Positions 3,270 to 64,000 of a stretch of DNA of 64,000 nt are shown here, piece after piece. The stretch's first letter is position 1. Each line of letters opens with the position of its first letter. The notes beneath the pieces were generated by a model, which did no database searches, had not been told where the DNA came from, and worked only from the letters and a program-made list of their open reading frames with translations. The position numbers were made by a program, and so were the translations under genes. The stretch is from the human T2T-CHM13v2.0 reference genome, Homo sapiens, in assembly GCA_009914755.4 (NCBI GenBank), contig CP086569.2, positions 14,624,001 to 14,688,000 on the forward strand. The letters are read 5' to 3'.

Positions 3270-5609
3270 AGAAGTGCAGTATTCTTTATGTGTATCAAAT
3301 ACTGCAGTGAAACAAAGAAAAAACTACCACAAAAAAAGTTATGTATTTAACTCTTTAAGGTTTTGCTTTCATGTTGACTGTACTAGCATGTACATGCTAT
3401 AAAAAATAGTTAATAGGAAAGACATGTTAGAAGAACCACCAACATCCTGTCCCCACAAAAATACAACTGGAAACAATTCAAATCCAAGAAAATTATCTTA
3501 CTTTTATCAAAATTTTGGAAAGAAGCAAAGATACTTCCTAGGCTTACAAAATTGGAAGAAGCTGTGACTGCTAACAGAAAGAGTTATTTCATACTACATC
3601 ACCCCTACCCCAGGGTCATAATACCATGCACAGAGATTTCCCTAGACCCAAAATTGCCAGTGTTGGGGAGGGAAGTAGAGGTGAAAATTCAGTCTCTCCA
3701 CTGATCTGGGAGTCTTCATAAAAAGGGCAGTTTGAGTTCATTCCAGGGGAACCACTGGGAATGAACTCAGGGGGCTAAATCACCTGGGATAAACTGAGGA
3801 CAAAGAGTAGGACACTGATCACAGTAACTGGCAAGTAAATCTTAGTGGCTTCTCTGTTCTCAGAGCAGAAATGCCACATATTAAAGAGGAGGCTGCAGGT
3901 GGGATCCATGGAGAGCTGCATGGTCAAAGGTGAATGGCTGATGCTTAAAACCACCTAAGGCCTATGGACTCATGTTGGCTGCCTTTGTTGTACACTTTTC
4001 TCTTCTATGCTGCTAGGCATAGTTTCATCTACTGGATTCAAAGGTTAGAATGGGCATGGAACCACGGCAAGCAAAAAGACCTCAGTATTAATGCTTTACT
4101 GATTAAGCTCAATCATATGGTACTGGGGAGGAACACAGCCTTGCAGTCTGCCATGGGATGGTAGATCATGAGTTAATTCTCTTTTCTTTTTTACCTGGCA
4201 TATATGGTCACCTTACATAGATGACATCATGTTAGTTCCTCCTAAAGACCTCTCTGGTTTTGGAGATCAAACATTTCTGGTCATGAGTATTATGAGAATT
4301 AGTGGTGAGTGTCTACAAAATGTGGGTACAAAGCACTTCTGTTAACTTCCTGGGAGTAGTCATTAAGTTAGGTAGGAATCAGATAATGCTTGAAGTGGTG
4401 GTAGATACGTCCATACAGTAAAGGAAGTATGAGCTTTTTTGGAACTGTTGAGGTACTAGAGAGCCTTTTTAATCAAATCTGGCCAATGACTTAGTGCACT
4501 ATATAGGTTAATTAAAATGAGAGCACTCTGGTATTGGAAACAGTAACAACATGCTTCTGAAAAGGCAAAGTTTGGGAGGGAGGAGCCAAGATGGCTGAAT
4601 AGGAACAGCTCCGGTCTACAACTCCCAGGGTGAGTGATGCAGAAGATGGGTGATTTCTGCATTTCCATCTGAGGTACCGGGTTCATCTCACTAGGGAGTG
4701 CCAGACAGTGGGTGCAGGACAGTGGGTGCAGTGCACCGTGCACGAGCCAAAGCAGGGTGAGGCATTGCCTCACTAGGGAAGTGCAAGGGGTCAGGGAGTT
4801 CCTTTTCCTAGTCAAAGAAAGGGGTGACAGACGGCACCTGGAAAATCAGGTCACTCCCACCCTAATACTGTGCTTTTCCGAGGGGTTTAAAAAAATGGCA
4901 CACCAGGAGATTATATCCCGCACATGGCTCAGAGGGTCCTACGCTCACGGAGTCTCACTGATTGCTAGCACAGCAGTCTGAGATCAAACTGCAAGGTGGC
5001 AGTGAGGCTGGGGGAGGGGCGCCTGCCATTGCCCAGGCTTGCTTAGGTAAACAAAGCAGCTGGGAGGCTTGAACTCGGTGGAGCCCACCACAGCTCAAGG
5101 AGGCCTGCCTGCCTCTATAGGCTCCACCTCTGGGGGCAGGGCACAGACAGACAAAAAGACAGCAGTAACCTCTGCAGACTTAAATCTCCCTGTCTGAAAG
5201 CTTTGAAGACAGCAGTGGTTCTCCCAGCACGCAGCTGGAGATCGGAGAACGGGCAGACTGCTACTCAAGTGGGTCCCTGACCCCTGATCCCTGAGCAGCC
5301 TAACTGGGAGGCACCCCCGAGTAGCTGTGTGGACACCTCACATGGCCGGGTACTCCTCTGAGACAAAACTTCCAGAGGAACGATCAGACAGCAGCATTCA
5401 TTGTTCACAAAAATCCGCTGTTCTGCCATCACCACTGCTGATACCCAGGCAAACGGGGTCTGGAGTGGACCTCTAGCAAACTCCAGCAGAACTGCAGCTG
5501 AGGGTCCTGTCTGTTGGAAGGAAAACTAACAAACAGAAAGGACATCCACACCAAAAACCCATCTGTACATCACCATCATCAAAGACCAAAAGTAGATAAA
5601 ACCACAAAG

Positions 5610-6626
5610 ATGGGGAAAAAACAGAGCAGAAAAACTGGAAACTCTAAAAAGCAGAGTGCCTCTCCTCCTCCAAAGGAACGCAGTTCCTCACCAGCAATGG
5701 AACAAAGGTGGATGGAGAATGACTTTGACGAGTTGAGAGAAGAAGGCTTCAGACGATCAAACTACTCCAGAGTACGGGAGGATATTGAAACCAAAGGCAA
5801 AGAAGTTAAAAGCTTTGAAAAAAATTTAGACGAATGTATAACTAGAATAACAAATACAGAGCAGTGCTTAAAGGAGCTGAAGGAGCTGAAAGCCAAGGCT
5901 TGAGAACTATGTGAAGCATGCAGAAGCCTCAGGAGCCAATGCAATCAACTGGAAGAAAGGGTATCAGTGATGGCAGATGAAATGAATGAAACGAAGCAAG
6001 AAAGGAAGTTTAGAGAAAAAAAAATAAAAAGAAATGAACAAAGCCTCCAAGAAATATGGGACTATATGAAAAGAACAAATCTACATCTGACTGGTGTACC
6101 TGAAAGTGACGGGGAGAATGGAATCAAGTTGGAAAACACTCTGCAGGATATTATCCTGGAGAACGTCCCCAATCTAGCAAGGCAGGCCAACATTCAGATT
6201 CAGGAAATACAGAGAACGCCACAAAGATACTCCTCGAGAAGAGCAACTCCAAGACACATAATTGCCAGATTCACCAAAGTTGAAATGAAGGAAAAAATGT
6301 TAAGGGCAGCCAGAGAGAAAGGTCGGGTTACCCACAAAGGGAAGCCCATCAAACTAACAGTGGATCTCTCGGCAGAAACTCTACAAGCCAGAAGAGAGTG
6401 GGGGCCAATATTCAACATTCTTAAAGAAAAGAATTGTCAACCCAGAATTTCATATCCAGCCAAACTAAGCTTCATAAGTGAAGGAGAAATAAAATACTTT
6501 ACAGACAAGCAAATGCTGAGAGATTTTATCACCACCAGGCCTGCCCTAAAAGACCTCCTCACAGAAGCACTAAACATGGAAAGGAACAACTGGTACCAGC
6601 CACCGCAAAATCATGCCAAATTGTAA
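5610..6626 (+). pseudogene. L1 ORF1 (ORF1p homolog) with a single in-frame nonsense codon
   Basis: ATG at 5610 gives MGKKQSRKTGNSKKQSASPPPKERSSSPA.... The six-frame ORFs 5514..5903 and 5967..6626 are in the same frame, interrupted only by TGA at 5901-5903. The local sequence gccaaggcttgagaa differs from canonical gctcgagaa by a CGA-to-TGA change at a CpG. Total length is 1017 nt, the canonical ORF1 length. Confidence 0.85.
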
Positions 6627-6689
6627 AGACCATCGAGGCTAGGAAGAAACTGCATCAACTAACAAACAAAATAACCAGCTAACATCATA

Positions 6690-10507
<3,818 letters not shown>

Positions 10508-17405: not shown

Positions 17406-18053
17406 ATAAAAGATATTATGGAGCCATAAGAAGTTAACATGACCATGTAAGAATAAAAGAGGCTGCATACCGAAGAGTGTTGAGTATTTCCAGTCCCAGG
17501 CAATGAATCTGTTGAGCACCTATCAGAAAAAGCCATTGTCCATAAGAAGTAGAAATGGAGATGGACATGTGAACAAAGACTTGATAAGGTGTGACGAACA
17601 TAATAAAAATGAACACCATGAAGAAAACACTCAGCAGTGTTAGAATGTTAACACTCACGAGAGAGAACAACATCCACCGCTGGAACACTCATGGGGTGAC
17701 AATGTGAAAGCACCAGCTGTTTAGTTCTGCTGAAGCATGGTTGACACTGGTGGGTCTGGAAAGAGATGAACTTCGCTGGGGGAAAACATAAAGAGAATCT
17801 TACTGCATGATAAACAACTGTCACATCAGCAGGGGGGCTCTAGCCATGATTTTTAAAGTAGGCAACAATAATAGTAGATTCTAATTTTAGAAAGAAGGTT
17901 GTGAAGGCATCTGGATGATTGAGAAGGCAGGTTTCAGACCAGAGGCAAAGACATAAGAGCTAATACTTTCGTTGGTGTTCACCGATATTAACTCAGTGAT
18001 TACTTATGACAACACCATGAAGTTGGTATGTTTTTCCCATTTTGCAGTTGAGA

Positions 18054-18590
18054 ACAATGAGCTAACATAAATAATATCCCCAAATCCACACTTCTAAAAC
18101 CTTCCACAGGGTCTACCTGGTGTTCAGATCCAGGCAGTCTTTTTCAGGCTCTACATTTTCAGCAGCTTTTATTTAACTGATTGTCTTGGGTACTTGCAAT
18201 ATTCCAGGCATGATTCCTGCACTGGGTGATGGGGGCAGGATTGTGCATGTGTCTCGCCCTATGGAAAAGCCCAACAGGGAGATGGTCTTACGTAGCAAAA
18301 GCTCAGGGCAGAGGTGGTTGAGACACATGCAAATCTTAGAGCTCTGCAGAGCAACTAGGGAAAGGCCCCAAGAACCACTTGTAGACACCGCCTCTTTGTA
18401 TAGCTGCTGCCCCCATCACCCAGTGCAGGAATCATGCCTGGCATATTGCAAAGTACCCAAGACAATCAGTTAAATAAAAGCTGCTGAAAACATAGAGCCT
18501 GCAAAAGACTGCCTGGATCTGAACCAAATAGACCCTGTGGAAGCTTTTAGAAGTGTGGATTTGGGGATATTATTTATGTTAGCTCATTGT
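18054..18590. repeat. Unclassified palindromic element (inverted-repeat arms of ~185 bp around a ~165 bp spacer). Probable fossil MITE or DNA transposon.
   Basis: 18054-18239 (acaatgagctaacataaataatatccccaaatccacacttctaaaacc...cctgcactgggtgatgggggcagg) is the reverse complement of 18404-18590 (ctgcccccatcacccagtgcagg...ggggatattatttatgttagctcattgt), at an estimated 95% identity by eye. The spacer holds a further inverted 12-mer tgcatgtgtctc / gagacacatgca. The six-frame track shows mirror ORFs on opposite strands, both ending VPKTIS. Confidence 0.6.
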
Positions 18591-19329
18591 ATAGCTGCTT
18601 GACACAAAGCAGTCTTCATCTCTGGGAAGGAAACTGAGGATCTGTGGTGGGCCCTGGTCAAAAATAAATGACCCACACCTGGCCAGAGCTCCTCACCCAA
18701 GTGGACACCAGGCCAGGGCTGGGCAAATGAGATTCTGGTTTTTACAGCATAGAGAGGAGAAGTCAGAGCCCCAGTACTGACTGGGCTCTGTAAAGTAGAG
18801 CAAGAGCATCCCCAATTCCTGCTGCATGGGCTTCTTTCCCATGCAAAGCCTCCTTGTCCAACTTGCCCTTTGATTCTATCACCTGGAACAGAATTATTTC
18901 AAGAACGGTGACGAATCCAGAAGGATGCAAAAAGAGGCTCCAGGGAAAAAAACTGGCGAAGAGACATGGGAAATCTAGGCATATGTGCTGTTTAGGAACA
19001 GGAGTTTCAAAGGAAGGGGTCTTGGGAATAAGTCAGTCCCATAAGCTCAACAAGGTAAGAGCAAAACAGTTGGGGAGATTTTGTATCCTCAGCAAGAAGT
19101 AATTCCCTGGTCTGCTGAGTGGCTTGAAGTACAATTAGTGGGAAAATTTCTGGTTCAAGATGATGGAAAATACCCCTGTTCTACTTTGAAAAAATGAACT
19201 ACAATAACGAGGAAAGGAAATAACTGTCCGTCTAGAATTCTCTTCTAAAAAGAGTATTCTCCAAAAATAAAAATGAAAAAAAAGACATTCCAATATATCC
19301 CCTCAAGAAATCTGAGAAAATACATTTCC

Positions 19330-19460
19330 TATAGAACCATATTAATATATCTATTATCTATCTGTCTATGTATCTATCTAATCTATCTGTAATTACATAT
19401 AATTACAGATAGATTATATTAAATATATGTAATTATATATGTAAGTTCTTCCTTAAAATT
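19330..19460. repeat. AT-rich (TATC)n-like simple repeat with local palindromes
   Basis: atctatctgtctatgtatctatctaatctatctgtaattacatataattacagatagatta. Confidence 0.7.
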
Positions 19461-19707
19461 AATCTTAAATATAATTACATATATTTAAGTTCTTCCAGAA
19501 GGAATGATCCCAGATGGAAACATGGAAATGTAAGAAAGAAGAAGCAATGGAAGGGATAAATAAATATAAAAACAAATCATAATGAATATTGATTATAATG
19601 TTTGTGAAAACATAATTTTTGTGAAATTTGAATTACATAATGAGAATCAAAATGTACAAATTAACAAAGAAAAAATAGAGTTTACAAACAGTCCCTGTAA
19701 TTATGGA

Positions 19708-19713
<6 letters not shown>

Positions 19714-19738
<25 letters not shown>

Positions 19739-19800
19739 CACAAAAAAATTATATACACATATCTAAATATCTCTCTCTCTATCTATCTATTTATCTAGTA
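19714..19800. repeat. (TA)n followed by (TCTA)n microsatellites
   Basis: tatatatatatatatatatatatatacaca ... ctctctctctatctatctatttatctag. Confidence 0.8.
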
Positions 19801-23567: not shown

Positions 23568-27388
<3,821 letters not shown>

Positions 27389-27451
27389 TATGATGTTAGC
27401 TGGTTCTTTTGCTCGTTAGTTGATGCAGTTTCCTCCTAGTCTCGATGGTCT

Positions 27452-28466
27452 TTACATTTTGGCATGATTTTGCTGCGGCTGGTACCGGTTGTTCCTTTCC
27501 ATGTTTAGCGCTTCCTTAAGGAGCTCTTTTAGGGCATGCCTGGTGGTGACAAAATCTCTTAGCATTTGCTTGTCTGTAAAGTATTTTATTTCTCCTTCAC
27601 TTATGAAGCTTAGTTTGGCTGGATATGAAATTCTGGGTTGAAATTTCTTTTCTTTAAGAATGTTGAATATTGGCCCCCACTCTCTTCTGGCTTGTAGAGT
27701 TTCTGCCGAGAGATCTGCTGTTAGTCTGATGGGCTTCTCTTTGAGGGTAACCCGACCTTTCTCTCTGGCTGCCCTTAACATTTTTTCCTTCATTTCAACT
27801 TTGGTGAATCTGACAATTATGTGTCTTGGAGTTGCTGTTCTCGAGGAGTATCTTTGTGGCGTTCTCTGTATTTCCTGAATCTGAATGTTGGCCTGCCTTG
27901 CTAGATTGGGGAAGTTCTCCTGGATAATATCCTGCAGAGTGTTTTCCAACTTGATTCCATTCTCCCCGTCACTTTCAGGTACACCAATCAGACGTAGATT
28001 TGGCCTTTTCACATAGTCCCATATTTCTTGGAGGCTTTGCTCATTTCTTTTTATTCTTTTTTCTCTAAACTTCCCTTCTTGCTTCATTTCATTCGTTTCA
28101 TCTTCCATCGCTGATACCCTTTCTTCCATTTGATCACATTGGCTCCTGAGGCTTCTGCATTCTTCACGTAGTTCTCGAGCCTCGGTTTTCAGCTTCATCA
28201 GCTCCTTTAAGTACTTCTCTGTATTGGTTATTCTAGTTATACATTCTTCTAAATTTTTTTCAGTTTTCAACTTCTTTGCCTTTGGTTTGAATGTCCTCCC
28301 GTAGCTCGGAGTAATTTGATCGTCTGAAGCCTTCTTCTCTCAGCTCATCAAAGTCATTCTCCGTCCAGCTTTGTTCCATTGCTGGTGAGGAACTGCATTC
28401 CTTTGGAGGAGGAGAGGCACTCTGTTTTTTAGAGTTTCCAGTTTTTCTGCTCTCTGTTTTCCCCAT
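27452..28466 (-). pseudogene. L1 ORF1 remnant (frameshifted)
   Basis: Track ORFs 28260..28466 (MGKTESRKTGNSKKQSASPPPKECSSSPAMEQSW...) and 27452..28270 (...RITNTEKYLKELMKLKTEARELREECRSLRSQCDQMEE...NHAKM) lie in different frames, so there is a frameshift near 28265. Confidence 0.8.
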
Positions 28467-33632: not shown

Positions 33633-36070
<2,438 letters not shown>

Positions 36071-37185: not shown

Positions 37186-38939
37186 CATGACACCGCATGT
37201 GGTGTTTATTAATCTACTTGTAAAGGCTGGGCTACAAGAAGTCTTAGGAAGACTCTTTTTCTACAGGGTCACCCCACACCTCCAACTCCTGCAAATGAGC
37301 CCATCCAGAAAGCTGTCTCTGGAGCACATGCCTGTTTCCATCTTCTCTTGCACAGTTTCAGGCCATGTTTAAGGATGGGAGAAGATTGCCTGGCCTCCAG
37401 CCTGGATGCCAGCCAGGTATGTGGACTTTCAAGTATGAAAGCTGTCAGGCTTTGCCTCAGGAGAGCACAACTTATGCACTTGTGGTATAGGCAGTGACTC
37501 AGATTCCCTGGGGCTGTGACCTGCTGTTGTCAGCCTGCTGTGACTTTCCTCTTCAGCAGAGGAATCTAGACTCTAATAGTCTCCGCCCTAGTTGTCCCCA
37601 CTTTTCTCCACTGCCCAGCACTTCAGCAACAAGACAGAAAAGCAGTGGGTAGATGTGCATACCTAGTACCTCCAGGTCTGCAGGCTGCTTCTGCCACACC
37701 TGCATGCAGTGGCTGTCAACCACTCCTGAAAACACAAGGGACTCAGTACTGAGGCATGAAGGTGGGAATGCAAACCAAGAGTACCTGAGTAATCCAGCAC
37801 TGCTCTGACCTGGAATTCTTTAGAATGTCATACAGAAAGGAAGATGGGATGGAAACCCAATTATTTCACAACTGAATGCTTCCCTTCATTCATGAAAAGG
37901 AACAGTGAATGTTACCACCTCCTGAAATGTCGGTATCTGGCTCCAGGATGCTTTGTCCAGGGCATTCAGCATGGAGCTAATTCAGGCTCAAAAATATAAT
38001 ACATGTAGGAGGTTAGCAGAGTGAAGAGGAGCTATGAGTCTGTGAGCTATGGAACAGGGAAGTGGGCTTTGGGGCTGGGCAGATCTGCTCTGCACCCAGG
38101 CTCTGCTGCTTTGTATATGGGTAGGTAGGGTGGATTACACCATCTTCCTGAATATCAACCCCTCATGCATCCAGTGGGGGACAGAAGCACCTGCCCTGCA
38201 AGATGCAATCAGGACACGAAACGTGTTGGAATAATATACGCAATGGTAATACAGCAGCTCGCTCTGCCTGGAAGATTACTAAGAAGCAGCCACTCTGCTG
38301 GGTGTTTTACAAGTTTTACATCACATTTTATGTTCTAACCTGGCTGGTATGTTTCAGTGAATGGTATAAAATGTTAGGACTACGGTAGAGAGACTTATGA
38401 AAGTGTTATGGGGCACTGCTTGTATTAAATCTATGGATAAGTTTGTACTGCTTTCCAGAACCCTGACTCTTACACCATTTTTGGGGGAGGGGAGGTTTTG
38501 GACAGCAGTTAATGAAGCATATCCATATTATCCAAAGGCATTTTATCTATGAAATATGACCAGAAAAAACTGAAAGTGCATCATGCAATGCCTTGTGTAA
38601 ACCATAGAATTTCTGTGCATGGTCTAAGCTTACAGAGCCTTAGGATTCTGGTCAGCTACTTTTCAACATTTCTATTTAACTTACCCTGGGCTCCATATTT
38701 TGAAAGCAGGTTGTGTATCAACATGTGACATTTGTTAAGTATGACCTAGTTTTTCCTCTTTTCATTAATCAAATATATCCATAACTCTTTCAAGCTTTAG
38801 ATTATCTTTAGGTCTCCTCCATGACCAGAGGCAATTAATAAAATGAATACTTTGCACCATCATCTTAGGAAAATGGGTTATTTTGGGGAGTTTTCTGAAA
38901 TATTTTAAAAGAGGTGATAAATGCCAATTCCTTTTCCAG

Positions 38940-39690
38940 TAGAAGGAAATTGGGTGGGTACGTGTACCACCAGTCAGGATGTTGTTGGTGGAATGATATT
39001 TTTTAAGCCGTCTTCCATAACACCAGCAACCTTTTCAGTTGTCCTCACCTGTGCAACTGTGGTGCAAAACTGCCTCCAGAAGCCAATAAGTGAGTGAGAA
39101 ATGCCATCCTGGTTCCCTGACAACTGACTGCTTCTGGATCATAACAGAGTGCTGTTTCCACTCTGTCTTCTCTCACTGTTAACATTCTAAGAAGTGGGTT
39201 CATTGAGTTCAAACATCTAGGAATGCAACAATAAAGACTTGAGTTTCTGCTATGGAGCCTTTGCAATCTCACTCTCAGGCCTTCAGTTTTCTTATCTGTA
39301 AAAGAAAATAACATTCCTGACCTCACAGAGTAGTTGGAACAGTCAAATATGTAGTTTATGTGAAACAACTTTGTCAACCCCAAAACTCTGCAAAACACAA
39401 TGCTAAACACCTTCAATCCTGTGGCTCAGAAATTCCAGAAAGCTTCTGAGTCAGACCCCACTGATTCAGAAGTTGTGTCCAACTGTAAGCCAAGAGACGA
39501 ACAGCCTCCTTTTCCCCCTTCTTACTCACTTATTGGCTTCTGGAGGCAGTTTTGCACCACAGTTGCACAGGTGAGGACAACTGAAAATGTTGCTGGTGTT
39601 ATGGAAGAAGGCTTGAAAAATATCAGTCCATCAACAACATCCTGGTGTTATTGATGGACTGGTGCATGTACCCACCCAATTCTTCTTCTA
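38940..39690. repeat. Unclassified inverted-repeat element (~160-bp arms, ~420-bp spacer). Probable DNA-transposon fossil.
   Basis: 38940-39098 (tagaaggaaattgggtgggtacgtgtaccaccagtcaggatgttgttggtgg...ctccagaagccaataagtgagtgag) is the reverse complement of 39521-39690 (cttactcacttattggcttctggaggcagttttgcaccacagttgcacaggtgaggacaactgaaaatgttgctggtgttatggaagaaggc...cccacccaattcttcttcta), at an estimated 93% identity by eye, with one indel of about 11 bp. Confidence 0.6.
39250..39400 (+). mobile_element. MIR-like SINE fragment (weak)
   Basis: ggccttcagttttcttatctgtaaaagaaaataacattcctgacctcacagagtagttggaac resembles the MIR core (cagtttcctcatctgtaaaatggggataataatagtacctacctcatagggttgttgtgagg). Confidence 0.35.
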
Positions 39691-44418: not shown

Positions 44419-44793
44419 AGCCCGTCACATCTTTGAGTAGGAATGTATTCTATCTTCTTGCTCTCTTCTGCTCTCTCTTTTTTTTTCCCTTTTCCCTCTC
44501 CCTCTCTTTCTATTTTGACATTTGGCTCTACCATTTTGAAAGCAGTACAGCCAAACCTAGTAGTGGTCATCATTCCAGAAATGGCCTGCATCTGGGAAAT
44601 ACTTTTTTTCCCCATTGGGCCAGAATTTAAAAGAAAGTAGAGAACATCTTTTAGTTGTTTTTGTTGTTTCCACATTTTTATGTCCAGAGTAATGAGCTAA
44701 TGTCCTCACAACTGCAAAGATATTTTCTAAAAAATCTGGGTAGAATATATTCTCTGCTTAAGTATCACAATCAACATTAGAAAAATATTTAGA

Positions 44794-52534: not shown

Positions 52535-52846
<312 letters not shown>

Positions 52847-53548: not shown

Positions 53549-57378
<3,830 letters not shown>

Positions 57379-59456: not shown

Positions 59457-64000
<4,544 letters not shown>

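What the first reader, a model, noticed from the sequence alone, without database searches (positions are those of the whole stretch)
18054..18590. ~540-bp near-palindrome (185-bp arms at an estimated 95% identity) that I could not place in a known repeat family
18054-18239 and 18404-18590 are reverse complements of each other, with only ~8-10 mismatches or indels over ~185 bp by eye. The 165-bp spacer contains its own inverted 12-mer (tgcatgtgtctc/gagacacatgca) whose symmetry centre is offset from that of the outer arms. The structure would transcribe into a long, near-perfect hairpin. In primates such hairpins come from fossil MITEs; MADE1 giving rise to mir-548 is a precedent, and some act as endo-siRNA or miRNA precursors. 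The arm termini (acaatgagctaac... / ...gttagctcattgt) do not match the hAT cagtg or mariner termini I know, and I see no clean TSD. It may be an uncharacterised or low-copy DNA-transposon family, or a locus-specific inverted duplication.
Basis: seen in the sequence. Interest (0 to 1): 0.5.

Follow-up and report, generated by a model that had tools for sequence, protein, structure and literature searches.

The report
Local inverted duplication, not a transposon
The 540-bp near-palindrome is real, but it looks like a one-off copying error that pasted a backwards copy of 185 bp of neighbouring DNA (half of an old MIR repeat plus unique sequence) about 170 bp downstream on what appears to be the human Y chromosome, so it is an ordinary mutational scar and not a new mobile element.

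Summary
Observation confirmed. 18054-18238 and 18407-18590 are reverse complements: 176 of 186 alignment columns identical (94.6%), with 7 mismatches and 2 indels. The spacer is 168 nt. As RNA it folds at -380 kcal/mol (z = -28).

The MITE reading is not supported.
- The left arm's outer end lies inside an old MIR SINE (17979-18185) that runs collinearly across the boundary.
- The arms also carry 53 nt of non-MIR DNA.
- The arms are 95% alike but only about 67-70% like the MIR consensus.
- No 2-11 nt target-site duplication flanks the whole structure.
- No other copy exists in the 64 kb window.

The right arm alone is bracketed by a 17-nt direct repeat (16/17: CTCTTTGTATAGCTGCT / CTCATTGTATAGCTGCT), so it is the inserted copy.

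Its left copy abuts the left arm exactly. This fits one fold-back template switch anchored on a pre-existing short inverted repeat. The entry junction has 2 nt of microhomology, the return junction has 4 exact (7 of 8), and 9 nt are duplicated.

Context: human, about 16 kb upstream of exon 1 of the Y-linked anosmin pseudogene ANOS2P (KALP). Arm divergence (K = 0.039) suggests roughly 10-20 My. No Rfam family matches. The kind of event is known, and interest is low.

The parts
17979..18185 (+). Old MIR SINE fragment (about consensus positions 57-266). It is the pre-existing host of the left arm and runs uninterrupted across the arm's outer boundary at 18053/18054.
   Evidence: nhmmer with a MIR consensus recalled from memory matches 17979-18144 at E = 1.9e-8. 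The part outside the arm scores 26 against a shuffle maximum of 15 (0/500). Collinear extension to MIR 266 at 18185 is beaten by 0 of 400 shuffles. The arm alone aligns best to MIR 146-266 (p about 0.01-0.03). Identity to the consensus is 67-72%.
18054..18238 (+). Left arm, the source copy (185 nt). It comprises the MIR 3' half (18054-18185) plus 53 nt of non-MIR flanking DNA (18186-18238).
   Evidence: It is not flanked by any direct repeat, and it is continuous with the upstream MIR.
18239..18255 (+). Left copy of the short inverted repeat GATT(G)TGCATGTGTCTC. It abuts the inner end of the left arm with no gap. Proposed anchor for the fold-back.
   Evidence: (perfect 12-mer) plus sequence reading. 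The stem forms in the DNA fold of the inferred ancestral strand and in the RNA fold.
18256..18319 (.). 64-nt loop between the two copies of the short inverted repeat. It is unique sequence.
18320..18335 (+). Right copy of the short inverted repeat (GAGACACATGCAAATC).
18336..18406 (.). 71-nt block between the short inverted repeat and the right arm. In the model it is ancestral forward sequence that bulged out during fold-back priming. It accounts for the offset of the symmetry centres.
   Evidence: it forms a side branch in the MFE fold. No homologue elsewhere in the window.
18392..18408 (+). Direct repeat copy 1, CTCTTTGTATAGCTGCT. It marks the target site: the departure point is about 18408 and the return point is 18399/18400.
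   Evidence: It is the only 17-mer pair with <=1 mismatch at spacing 191 in the whole window.
18407..18590 (-). Right arm, the inserted reverse-complement copy of 18054-18238 (184 nt).
   Evidence: It is bracketed by the 17-nt direct repeat. Its outer flank shows no significant MIR continuation.
18583..18599 (+). Direct repeat copy 2, CTCATTGTATAGCTGCT. The first 8 nt are the end of the inverted copy (return microhomology, 7 of 8 with the terminal TTGT exact). The last 9 nt (18591-18599, ATAGCTGCT) are the duplicated target.

Best explanation
The structure is a locus-specific inverted duplication, a scar of one replication or repair error, and not a mobile element.

Shown:
- 185 nt of local DNA at 18054-18238 (the 3' half of an old MIR SINE plus 53 nt of unique sequence) is present a second time, reverse-complemented, at 18407-18590.
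- That second copy alone is bracketed by a 17-nt direct repeat.

Inferred mechanism: a single fold-back (snap-back) template switch.
1. A 3' DNA end at about 18408, either a nascent strand at a stalled fork or a resected break end, folded back.
2. It was anchored by a pre-existing 16-bp inverted repeat (18320-18335 pairing with 18239-18255), with 71 nt bulged out.
3. Its terminal CT paired with AG at 18237-18238, stacked on that stem.
4. A polymerase then copied the strand leftwards to 18054.
5. The new 3' end ...CTCATTGT dissociated and re-annealed to the original template at CTCTTTGT (18392-18399), 9 nt behind the departure point, so ATAGCTGCT was copied twice.

The event fits the MMBIR/FoSTeS or Ripley-type template-switching class.

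Arm divergence (K = 0.039) puts the event very roughly 10-20 million years ago. That figure is an inference from assumed primate neutral rates.

The most likely present-day role is none. It is a neutral hairpin-capable sequence about 16 kb upstream of the Y-linked pseudogene ANOS2P. If transcribed, it would form about 185 bp of near-perfect dsRNA.

The confidence given (0.7) is for the whole statement. For the general claim alone (a local templated inverted duplication, not a transposon) I would say about 0.85. For the specific single anchored fold-back I would say about 0.55.
For: - Arm homology is 94.6% over 185 nt.
- The MIR match runs collinearly from 17979 across 18054 to about 18185. The spacing from the CCCATTTT motif to the CCAGGCAGTCT motif is 93 nt in the window against 92 nt in the consensus (consensus recalled from memory).
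- The arms are 67-70% identical to the MIR consensus but 94.6% identical to each other, and they share 53 nt of non-MIR sequence.
- The 17-nt direct repeat brackets the right arm only. It is unique at that spacing in the window, and exact 9-mer direct repeats at a fixed spacing occur at only about 2.5-5 positions per 64 kb.
- Junction microhomologies, read, are CT (2 nt) at entry and TTGT exact, or 7 of 8, at return.
- The left copy of the short inverted repeat abuts 18238 exactly. The empirical rate of >=12-nt perfect inverted repeats is about 8 per 64 kb, so one starting within about 6 nt of a given point is expected about 7.5e-4 times.
- The short stem forms in the MFE and centroid DNA folds of the inferred ancestral strand, and the last ~32 nt (3' end) stay unpaired.
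- There is no other copy in the window and no TSD around the whole structure.
- Literature: MMBIR junctions show 2-5 bp microhomology, and a return behind the collapse point gives a duplication (PMC2621351). Classic template switching uses a pre-existing inverted repeat and creates hairpins in one event (PMC5453318; PMC10710096).
Against: - No outgroup or pre-duplication allele could be obtained. The arm 24-mers have no exact match in the metagenome, prokaryote-genome or viral collections. The polarity and the single-event claim therefore rest on this one sequence.
- The MIR consensus was recalled from memory and could not be found in print. The recalled sequence does hit three sites in the window.
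- The arm-only MIR match is modest (p about 0.01-0.03).
- In the four-point survey of short template switches, event types in which point 4 precedes point 1 were never observed (PMC5453318), and this event has that order (3-2-4-1). A copied fragment of 185 nt also seems long for events described as short template switches (my judgement; no length range was retrieved from the papers).
- Two-step histories reproduce the same final sequence.
- The DNA fold of the ancestral strand is not unusually stable overall (z = -1.4).
- Genome-wide copy number was not testable.
Confidence: 0.7

Rival explanations
1. Two-step history. One version is a contiguous about 202-nt inverted duplication (18054-18255 copied to 18320-...-18590), followed later by a 71-nt insertion (18336-18406) into the right arm. 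The other version is a 71-nt deletion from the left copy, plus a short templated insertion at the outer junction.
For: Left homology 18054-18255 is contiguous, while the right homology is split by exactly one 71-nt block. The last 15-17 nt of that block resemble the outer junction of the right arm. Multiple switches are typical of MMBIR (PMC2621351).
Against: It needs two or three events instead of one. About 54 nt of the block would have no identifiable source. In the first version the original junctions have 0-1 nt of microhomology and no duplication (read). The single-event model explains both the adjacency and the direct repeat.
Confidence: 0.15
2. Fossil MITE or low-copy non-autonomous DNA transposon with 185-bp terminal inverted repeats.
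For: It has a palindromic architecture with long arms and a short internal region. The strongest part of the MIR match ends at 18052, right at the arm boundary. An exact 12-nt MIR-core motif, AGGAAACTGAGG, lies to the right at 18628-18639 and could be read as the MIR resuming after an insertion.
Against: With scoring suited to old repeats, the left arm continues the MIR collinearly to consensus position 266 (0 of 400 shuffles reach the score). The right-flank candidate is no better than shuffles (166/400 and 76/400). It would also leave 37 nt unexplained between 18590 and 18628. No 2-11 nt TSD flanks the structure. There is no second copy in 64 kb. This model does not explain the 17-nt direct repeat around the right arm alone.
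Confidence: 0.04
3. A staggered double-strand break (9-nt 5' overhangs, for example from an L1 endonuclease nick pair) was filled in, and a local DNA or cDNA fragment was captured by end joining.
For: A 9-nt duplication, ATAGCTGCT, flanks the insert. L1-type TSDs are 7-20 nt (background knowledge).
Against: Neither end of the insert has a poly(A) tail, and the target TTGT/ATAG is a poor match to the L1 endonuclease site (the site consensus is background knowledge). This model leaves as coincidence the 7-of-8 match between the insert's end and the target (chance about 4e-4 by simple counting). It also leaves as coincidence the exact abutment of the source to the short inverted repeat. A free fragment originating about 170 bp away is less likely than templated synthesis.
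Confidence: 0.05
4. Two independent MIR SINE insertions in opposite orientation that happen to pair, like the TE-pair hairpins proposed as sources of some miRNAs.
For: Both arms contain MIR-like sequence.
Against: The arms are 94.6% identical to each other but only 67-70% identical to the consensus. They share the same indels relative to the consensus and 53 nt of non-MIR DNA. Both end at the same internal MIR position.
Confidence: 0.01
5. Whatever its origin, the hairpin is now a functional small-RNA locus (a young miRNA or endo-siRNA precursor) or an ADAR-edited dsRNA element.
For: The predicted hairpin is very stable. Template switching has produced new primate miRNAs (PMC10710096). ANOS2P is reported as still transcribed (PMC5860151).
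Against: No Rfam family matches at gathering thresholds in the whole window, and only chance-level hits appear locally. The structure lies about 16 kb upstream of the nearest exon found, not inside it. Only 7.8% of human intergenic inverted duplicates are expressed (PMC5398296). A 185-bp perfect stem is not a Drosha-type substrate (background knowledge). The arms have diverged about 4-5%, which gives no sign of constraint.
Confidence: 0.03

Closest known systems
Template-switch mutations (Ripley model; four-point model of Loytynoja & Goldman, PMC5453318; TSM-born miRNA hairpins, PMC10710096)
   Same: [quoted passage not shown] The event is seeded by a pre-existing short inverted repeat, and it needs no transposase.
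   Different: The copied fragment is 185 nt, which seems long for events described as short template switches (my judgement; no length range was retrieved). The switch-point order is 3-2-4-1, with the return 9 nt behind the departure. That class was not observed among short TSMs. A 71-nt bulge separates the anchor from the primer end.
MMBIR / FoSTeS microhomology-mediated template switching (PMC2621351)
   Same: There is microhomology at both junctions (2 nt, and 4 exact or 7 of 8). The templated insertion is inverted, and a return behind the break point gives a short duplication.
   Different: The scale differs. MMBIR was proposed for copy number variation and low copy repeats, which are generally far larger than this event (scale is background knowledge). 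This event is 0.2 kb with a source about 170 bp away.
Made1 MITEs / hsa-mir-548 (PMC1784062)
   Same: Near-palindromic DNA that would fold into a stable RNA hairpin.
   Different: Made1 has 37-bp TIRs flanking 6 bp and 7,850 annotated copies. Here the arms are 185 bp and are made of host MIR plus unique DNA. The structure is single-copy in the window, has no TSD, and its arm ends are not element termini.
Genome-wide 'inverted duplicates' catalogue (IRF-based; PMC5398296)
   Same: It fits the definition (arms 10-10,000 nt, spacer 0-1,000 nt) and overlaps a repeat. It is one of about 4.3 million in human.
   Different: With 185-nt arms it falls in the longest fifth (>=36 nt). That catalogue does not resolve origins junction by junction.
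Human Y-chromosome ampliconic palindromes P1-P8 (background knowledge)
   Same: An inverted repeat on the male-specific Y.
   Different: By background knowledge, P1-P8 arms are 9 kb to 1.45 Mb, are >99.9% identical, are kept alike by gene conversion and carry testis genes. This structure is 185 bp, has about 5% diverged arms, contains no gene, and appears to lie in X-degenerate sequence near ANOS2P.

Membership tests
MITE / non-autonomous DNA transposon | A target-site duplication flanks the whole element. | tested here: not met
   The 2-11 nt on either side of 18054 and 18590 never match (GA/AT ... TGCAGTTGAGA/ATAGCTGCTTG).
MITE / non-autonomous DNA transposon | The inverted-repeat ends are element termini, so host sequence is interrupted at them. 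| tested here: not met
   The MIR alignment runs collinearly from 17979 through 18054 to about 18185. The right outer flank does not continue the MIR. Caveat: the MIR consensus was recalled from memory.
MITE / non-autonomous DNA transposon | Multiple dispersed copies in the genome. | tested here: inconclusive
   There is no other copy in the 64-kb window. The collections available hold no human genome, and the exact 24-mers are absent from them. Genome-wide copy number could not be tested.
Template-switch mutation (four-point model) | The new sequence is the reverse complement of a nearby fragment (2->3), and one event explains it. | tested here: met
   18407-18590 is the reverse complement of 18054-18238, about 170 bp away. 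The whole difference from the inferred ancestor (a 191-nt insertion) is accounted for by the copy plus a 9-nt re-copy.
Template-switch mutation (four-point model) | The switch-point order is one of the observed classes, with point 1 before point 4. | tested here: not met
   The inferred order is 3 (18054) - 2 (18238) - 4 (18400) - 1 (18408). Classes with 4 before 1 were not observed in the human-chimp or human-human comparisons (PMC5453318).
Template-switch mutation (four-point model) | The ancestral state without the inverted copy is seen in an outgroup. | not testable with these tools
   No primate or X-homologue sequence was reachable.
MMBIR / FoSTeS | Microhomology at the breakpoint junctions. 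| tested here: met
   Entry: CT is shared by the target (18407-18408) and the source end. Return: CTCATTGT against CTCTTTGT, with the terminal TTGT exact. MMBIR junctions typically show 2-5 bp.
MMBIR / FoSTeS | A return behind the departure point produces a duplication, and an inverted switch produces an inverted segment. | tested here: met
   The 9-nt ATAGCTGCT is duplicated at 18400-18408 and 18591-18599, and the insert is inverted (rule from PMC2621351).
Inverted pair of independent SINE insertions | The arms are about as diverged from each other as each is from the family consensus, and the homology is limited to the element. | tested here: not met
   Arm-to-arm identity is 94.6% against 67-70% to the consensus, and the homology extends 53 nt beyond the MIR.
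Known RNA family (miRNA or other, Rfam 15) | A covariance-model match at the family's gathering score. | tested here: not met
   There are 0 matches in the whole window. The best local hits have E >= 0.23 and lie far below their gathering scores.
L1-mediated retro-insertion | A poly(A) tail next to one TSD and a TT/AAAA-like target. | tested here: not met
   The insert ends are CTGCCCCC... and ...CTCATTGT. The target is TTGT/ATAG. The site consensus is background knowledge.

The most novel reading that the evidence does not exclude
The hairpin is a de novo, hominoid-age, Y-linked dsRNA locus created in one step by template switching, a fivefold-longer analogue of TSM-born miRNA hairpins. It would be transcribed in testis, for example within upstream transcripts of the still-transcribed ANOS2P, and either processed into small RNAs or hyper-edited by ADAR. 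Its formation would also document a template-switch class, a return behind the departure point anchored by a bulged short inverted repeat, that surveys of short events did not observe.
Probability: 0.04. Interest if true: 0.45.

Novelty: new member of a known kind. Interest (0 to 1): 0.2.

Why it matters
This is mainly a cautionary and didactic case. A long near-perfect palindrome in primate DNA need not be a fossil MITE, and its junctions and its relation to older repeats can settle the origin from the sequence alone. It is a clean example of how replication or repair template switching makes hairpin-forming DNA in one step, the raw material proposed for new miRNAs. It also has an unusual geometry: a short-inverted-repeat anchor, a 71-nt bulge, and a return 9 nt behind the departure point. 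Nothing indicates a biological function. Its practical relevance is limited to a possible local fragility or assembly hazard on the Y chromosome.

Tried and rejected
- Rfam search of the whole window at gathering thresholds, and of 17900-18750 at E<=10, found nothing meaningful.
- Exact 24-mers from the arms were searched in metagenome contigs (twice), prokaryotic genome contigs and viral contigs, hoping for human or primate contaminant contigs as outgroups. There were no hits.
- Exact-protein look-ups of ORFs spanning the palindrome, and of the ANOS-like ORF, in the assembly collection found nothing on record.
- I tried to find a printed MIR consensus by searching papers for two consensus fragments. 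One search returned only primer coincidences and the other returned nothing. The consensus used is therefore from memory, validated only by its three significant hits in the window.
- I tested whether the MIR resumes right of the palindrome at the exact AGGAAACTGAGG motif (18628-18639), which would have favoured a transposon insertion. The match is no better than shuffles.
- I first treated the spacer 12-mer inverted repeat as a chance feature, expected about 0.02 times per spacer. I revised this after seeing that its left copy abuts the left arm exactly.
- An ODIRA-type or flap-trimmed fold-back at the short inverted repeat was rejected, because the inverted copy would then start at 18336, not 18407.
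- L1-mediated insertion was rejected (no poly(A) tail, poor target site).

Full report

Yes. The repeat finder reports three abutting inverted segments covering 18054-18238 and 18407-18590. A gapped alignment of the left arm against the reverse complement of the right arm gives 176 identical columns of 186 (94.6%), with 7 substitutions and two indels. The spacer is 168 nt.

As RNA, 18040-18604 folds into one long hairpin at -379.8 kcal/mol. Dinucleotide shuffles give -163.8 +/- 7.7, so z = -27.9.

Read with one bulged G, it is a 16-bp inverted repeat, 18239-18255 against 18320-18335.

**2. Where are we?**

- The window is primate DNA. A recalled Alu consensus hits about 25 places, and several L1 ORF1/ORF2 remnants are present.
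- A CpG island lies at 33.8-36.0 kb (GC 0.63, CpG o/e 0.73). It carries an exon whose translation matches anosmin-1 (PDB 1zlg_A, E = 8.5e-19, 44 of 49 identical).
- That translation is 100% identical over 69 residues to a human database entry 'Similar to KALIG-1 [Homo sapiens]'.
- Human X-linked anosmin-1 differs at 5 of 49 positions, so this should be the Y-linked homologue KALP, now called ANOS2P. It is described as degraded in situ and still transcribed (PMC5860151).
- The palindrome lies about 15.8 kb upstream of that exon.

**3. It is not a transposon.**

- A MIR SINE consensus, recalled from memory, matches 17979-18144 at E = 1.9e-8. It also matches two other sites in the window, which shows the recalled sequence is a real dispersed repeat.
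- The part outside the arm (17987-18052, MIR 65-134) is strongly MIR-like: score 26 against a shuffle maximum of 15.
- With scoring suited to old repeats, the match continues collinearly through the arm boundary to MIR position 266 at 18185 (0 of 400 shuffles reach the score). The arm alone aligns best to exactly the collinear segment, MIR 146-266 (p about 0.01-0.03).
- The outer end of the left arm is therefore an arbitrary internal point of an older SINE. The arm also contains 53 nt (18186-18238) beyond the SINE.
- Each arm is 67-70% identical to the consensus, but the arms are 94.6% identical to each other. This excludes two independent MIR insertions.
- I tested the opposite reading explicitly. 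An exact AGGAAACTGAGG motif at 18628-18639 could be the MIR resuming after a transposon insertion. That alignment is no better than shuffles (166/400 and 76/400).
- No 2-11-nt TSD flanks 18054-18590. No other copy of the arm or spacer exists in the 64 kb.
- No Rfam family matches.

**4. What the junctions say.**

The right arm alone is bracketed by a direct repeat: CTCTTTGTATAGCTGCT (18392-18408) and CTCATTGTATAGCTGCT (18583-18599). This is the only 17-mer pair with at most one mismatch at that spacing in the window. Exact 9-mer repeats at a fixed spacing occur at only about 2.5-5 positions per 64 kb. The right arm is therefore the inserted copy, and the inferred pre-event sequence is ...CGCCTCTTTGTATAGCTGCT|TGACACAAAG....

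- At the inner junction, target and source share CT.
- At the outer junction, the last 8 nt of the copy (CTCATTGT) match the target (CTCTTTGT) at 7 of 8 positions, with the terminal TTGT exact.
- The following 9 nt, ATAGCTGCT, are present twice.

This is the signature of a templated, microhomology-mediated event that returned 9 nt behind its departure point. It is not the signature of a transposase, and it is not L1-mediated (no poly(A) tail, poor target site).

**5. The small inverted repeat is part of the story.**

Its left copy starts at 18239, the base immediately after the left arm. Its right copy ends at 18335, which is 71 nt before the right arm. Perfect inverted repeats of at least 12 nt with loops up to 165 nt occur about 8 times per 64 kb once low-complexity cases are discounted. 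One starting within about 6 nt of a given point is therefore expected about 7.5e-4 times.

The simplest account is that this 16-bp repeat already existed and anchored a fold-back:

1. Strand segment 18320-18335 pairs with 18239-18255, and 18336-18406 bulges out.
2. The terminal CT (18407-18408) pairs with AG (18237-18238), stacked on the stem.
3. Extension from that end copies 18236 down to 18054.
4. The strand then returns through the CTCATTGT/CTCTTTGT microhomology.

In a DNA fold of the inferred ancestral strand, the short stem forms in both the MFE and the centroid structures, and the last ~32 nt (3' end) stay unpaired. The fold as a whole is not unusually stable (z = -1.4).

**6. Comparison with the literature.**

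Classic and four-point template switching create inverted repeats in one step, and the classic form needs a pre-existing inverted repeat (PMC5453318). Such events have generated new primate miRNA hairpins (PMC10710096).

In that survey, however, classes in which point 4 precedes point 1 were never seen, supposedly because the new duplex would have to be reopened. The present event has the order 3-2-4-1. This fits MMBIR better, where a displaced 3' end re-anneals by 2-5 bp of microhomology and a return behind the break gives a duplication (PMC2621351). It also fits an anchored fold-back in which at least 89 nt of nascent strand had already been unwound.

I therefore place the event in the template-switch/MMBIR class, without claiming membership of the short-TSM classes.

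Inverted duplicates as such are extremely common in human DNA: 4.3 million, with the top fifth having arms of at least 36 nt, and 7.8% of intergenic ones expressed (PMC5398296). Made1/mir-548 MITEs differ in every defining respect (37-bp TIRs, 7,850 copies; PMC1784062).

**7. Age and function.**

Seven substitutions in 182 aligned sites give K = 0.039. One adjacent pair (CA in the left arm, TG in the right) looks like independent decay of one CpG. With assumed primate neutral rates of 1-2e-9 per site per year, the event is roughly 10-20 My old, with wide Poisson error. This is an inference.

Nothing suggests constraint or function. The most likely current role is none. Transcription, processing and editing could not be tested.

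**8. Rivals that remain.**

- Two-step histories, about 0.15: a contiguous 202-nt duplication followed by a 71-nt insertion, or a 71-nt deletion from the left copy.
- Staggered break with fragment capture, about 0.05.
- Fossil MITE, about 0.04.
- Functional small-RNA locus, about 0.03. This is independent of the origin question.

The decisive data are the X homologue and ape Y orthologues, plus a genome-wide copy count.

**9. Verdict.**

This is a new instance of a known kind of mutation, neatly resolved and of low general interest.

Noticed in passing
window 19379-19496: Two more perfect inverted repeats lie 0.9 kb downstream in an AT-rich patch. One has 17-nt arms at 19379-19395 / 19400-19416 with a 4-nt loop. 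The other has 20-nt arms at 19419-19438 / 19469-19488. In the second, the right arm is again bracketed by a perfect 11-nt direct repeat, TAAGTTCTTCC (19442-19452 / 19486-19496), and a 12-nt filler, TTAAAATTAATC, has no full-length local source. This is the same architecture as the 185-nt case and looks like a smaller, younger template-switch insertion. Chance was not quantified for this AT-rich context.
   Followed up: partly
window 33800-36000, exon about 34429-34635 (+): A CpG island (GC 0.63, CpG o/e 0.73) carries exon 1 of an anosmin-1-like gene. The exon is 100% identical to a human 'Similar to KALIG-1' entry and 44/49 identical to X-linked anosmin-1. This identifies the window as the human Y-linked pseudogene ANOS2P (KALP) locus.
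   Followed up: yes
window 18628-18639: An exact 12-nt MIR-core motif, AGGAAACTGAGG, lies 37 nt right of the palindrome. I tested it as a possible resumption of the split MIR. The extended alignment is no better than shuffles.
   Followed up: yes
window 18341-18352: A perfect 12-nt palindrome, GCTCTGCAGAGC, sits inside the 71-nt block between the short inverted repeat and the right arm.
   Followed up: no
window 19350-19395 and 19713-19740: A degenerate TCTA-type tetranucleotide microsatellite and a (TA)n run.
   Followed up: no
window 5514-10129 (+), 23568-28270 (-), 53549-57182 (-), 60989-63499 (-): Four L1 copies with long ORF1/ORF2 remnants (up to 554 aa), plus about 25 Alu copies across the window. 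The youngest-looking Alu is at 52535-52822, 94% identical to the recalled consensus.
   Followed up: no
window 39253-39364 (-), 38251-38333 (+), 44640-44700: Other weak MIR-like fragments. The first two match the recalled consensus at E = 2.9e-5 and 0.0086. The third is 72% identical to 18008-18065.
   Followed up: no
window 17978-18178 (-), 18468-18661 (+), 18099-18202 (-), 18444-18542 (+): Sub-threshold Rfam hits to lncRNA 'conserved region' families (lincRNA-p21_1, PART1_3; E = 1.4-3.5) fall symmetrically on the MIR-derived parts of both arms. They probably reflect SINE-like content in those models and not an RNA gene.
   Followed up: no
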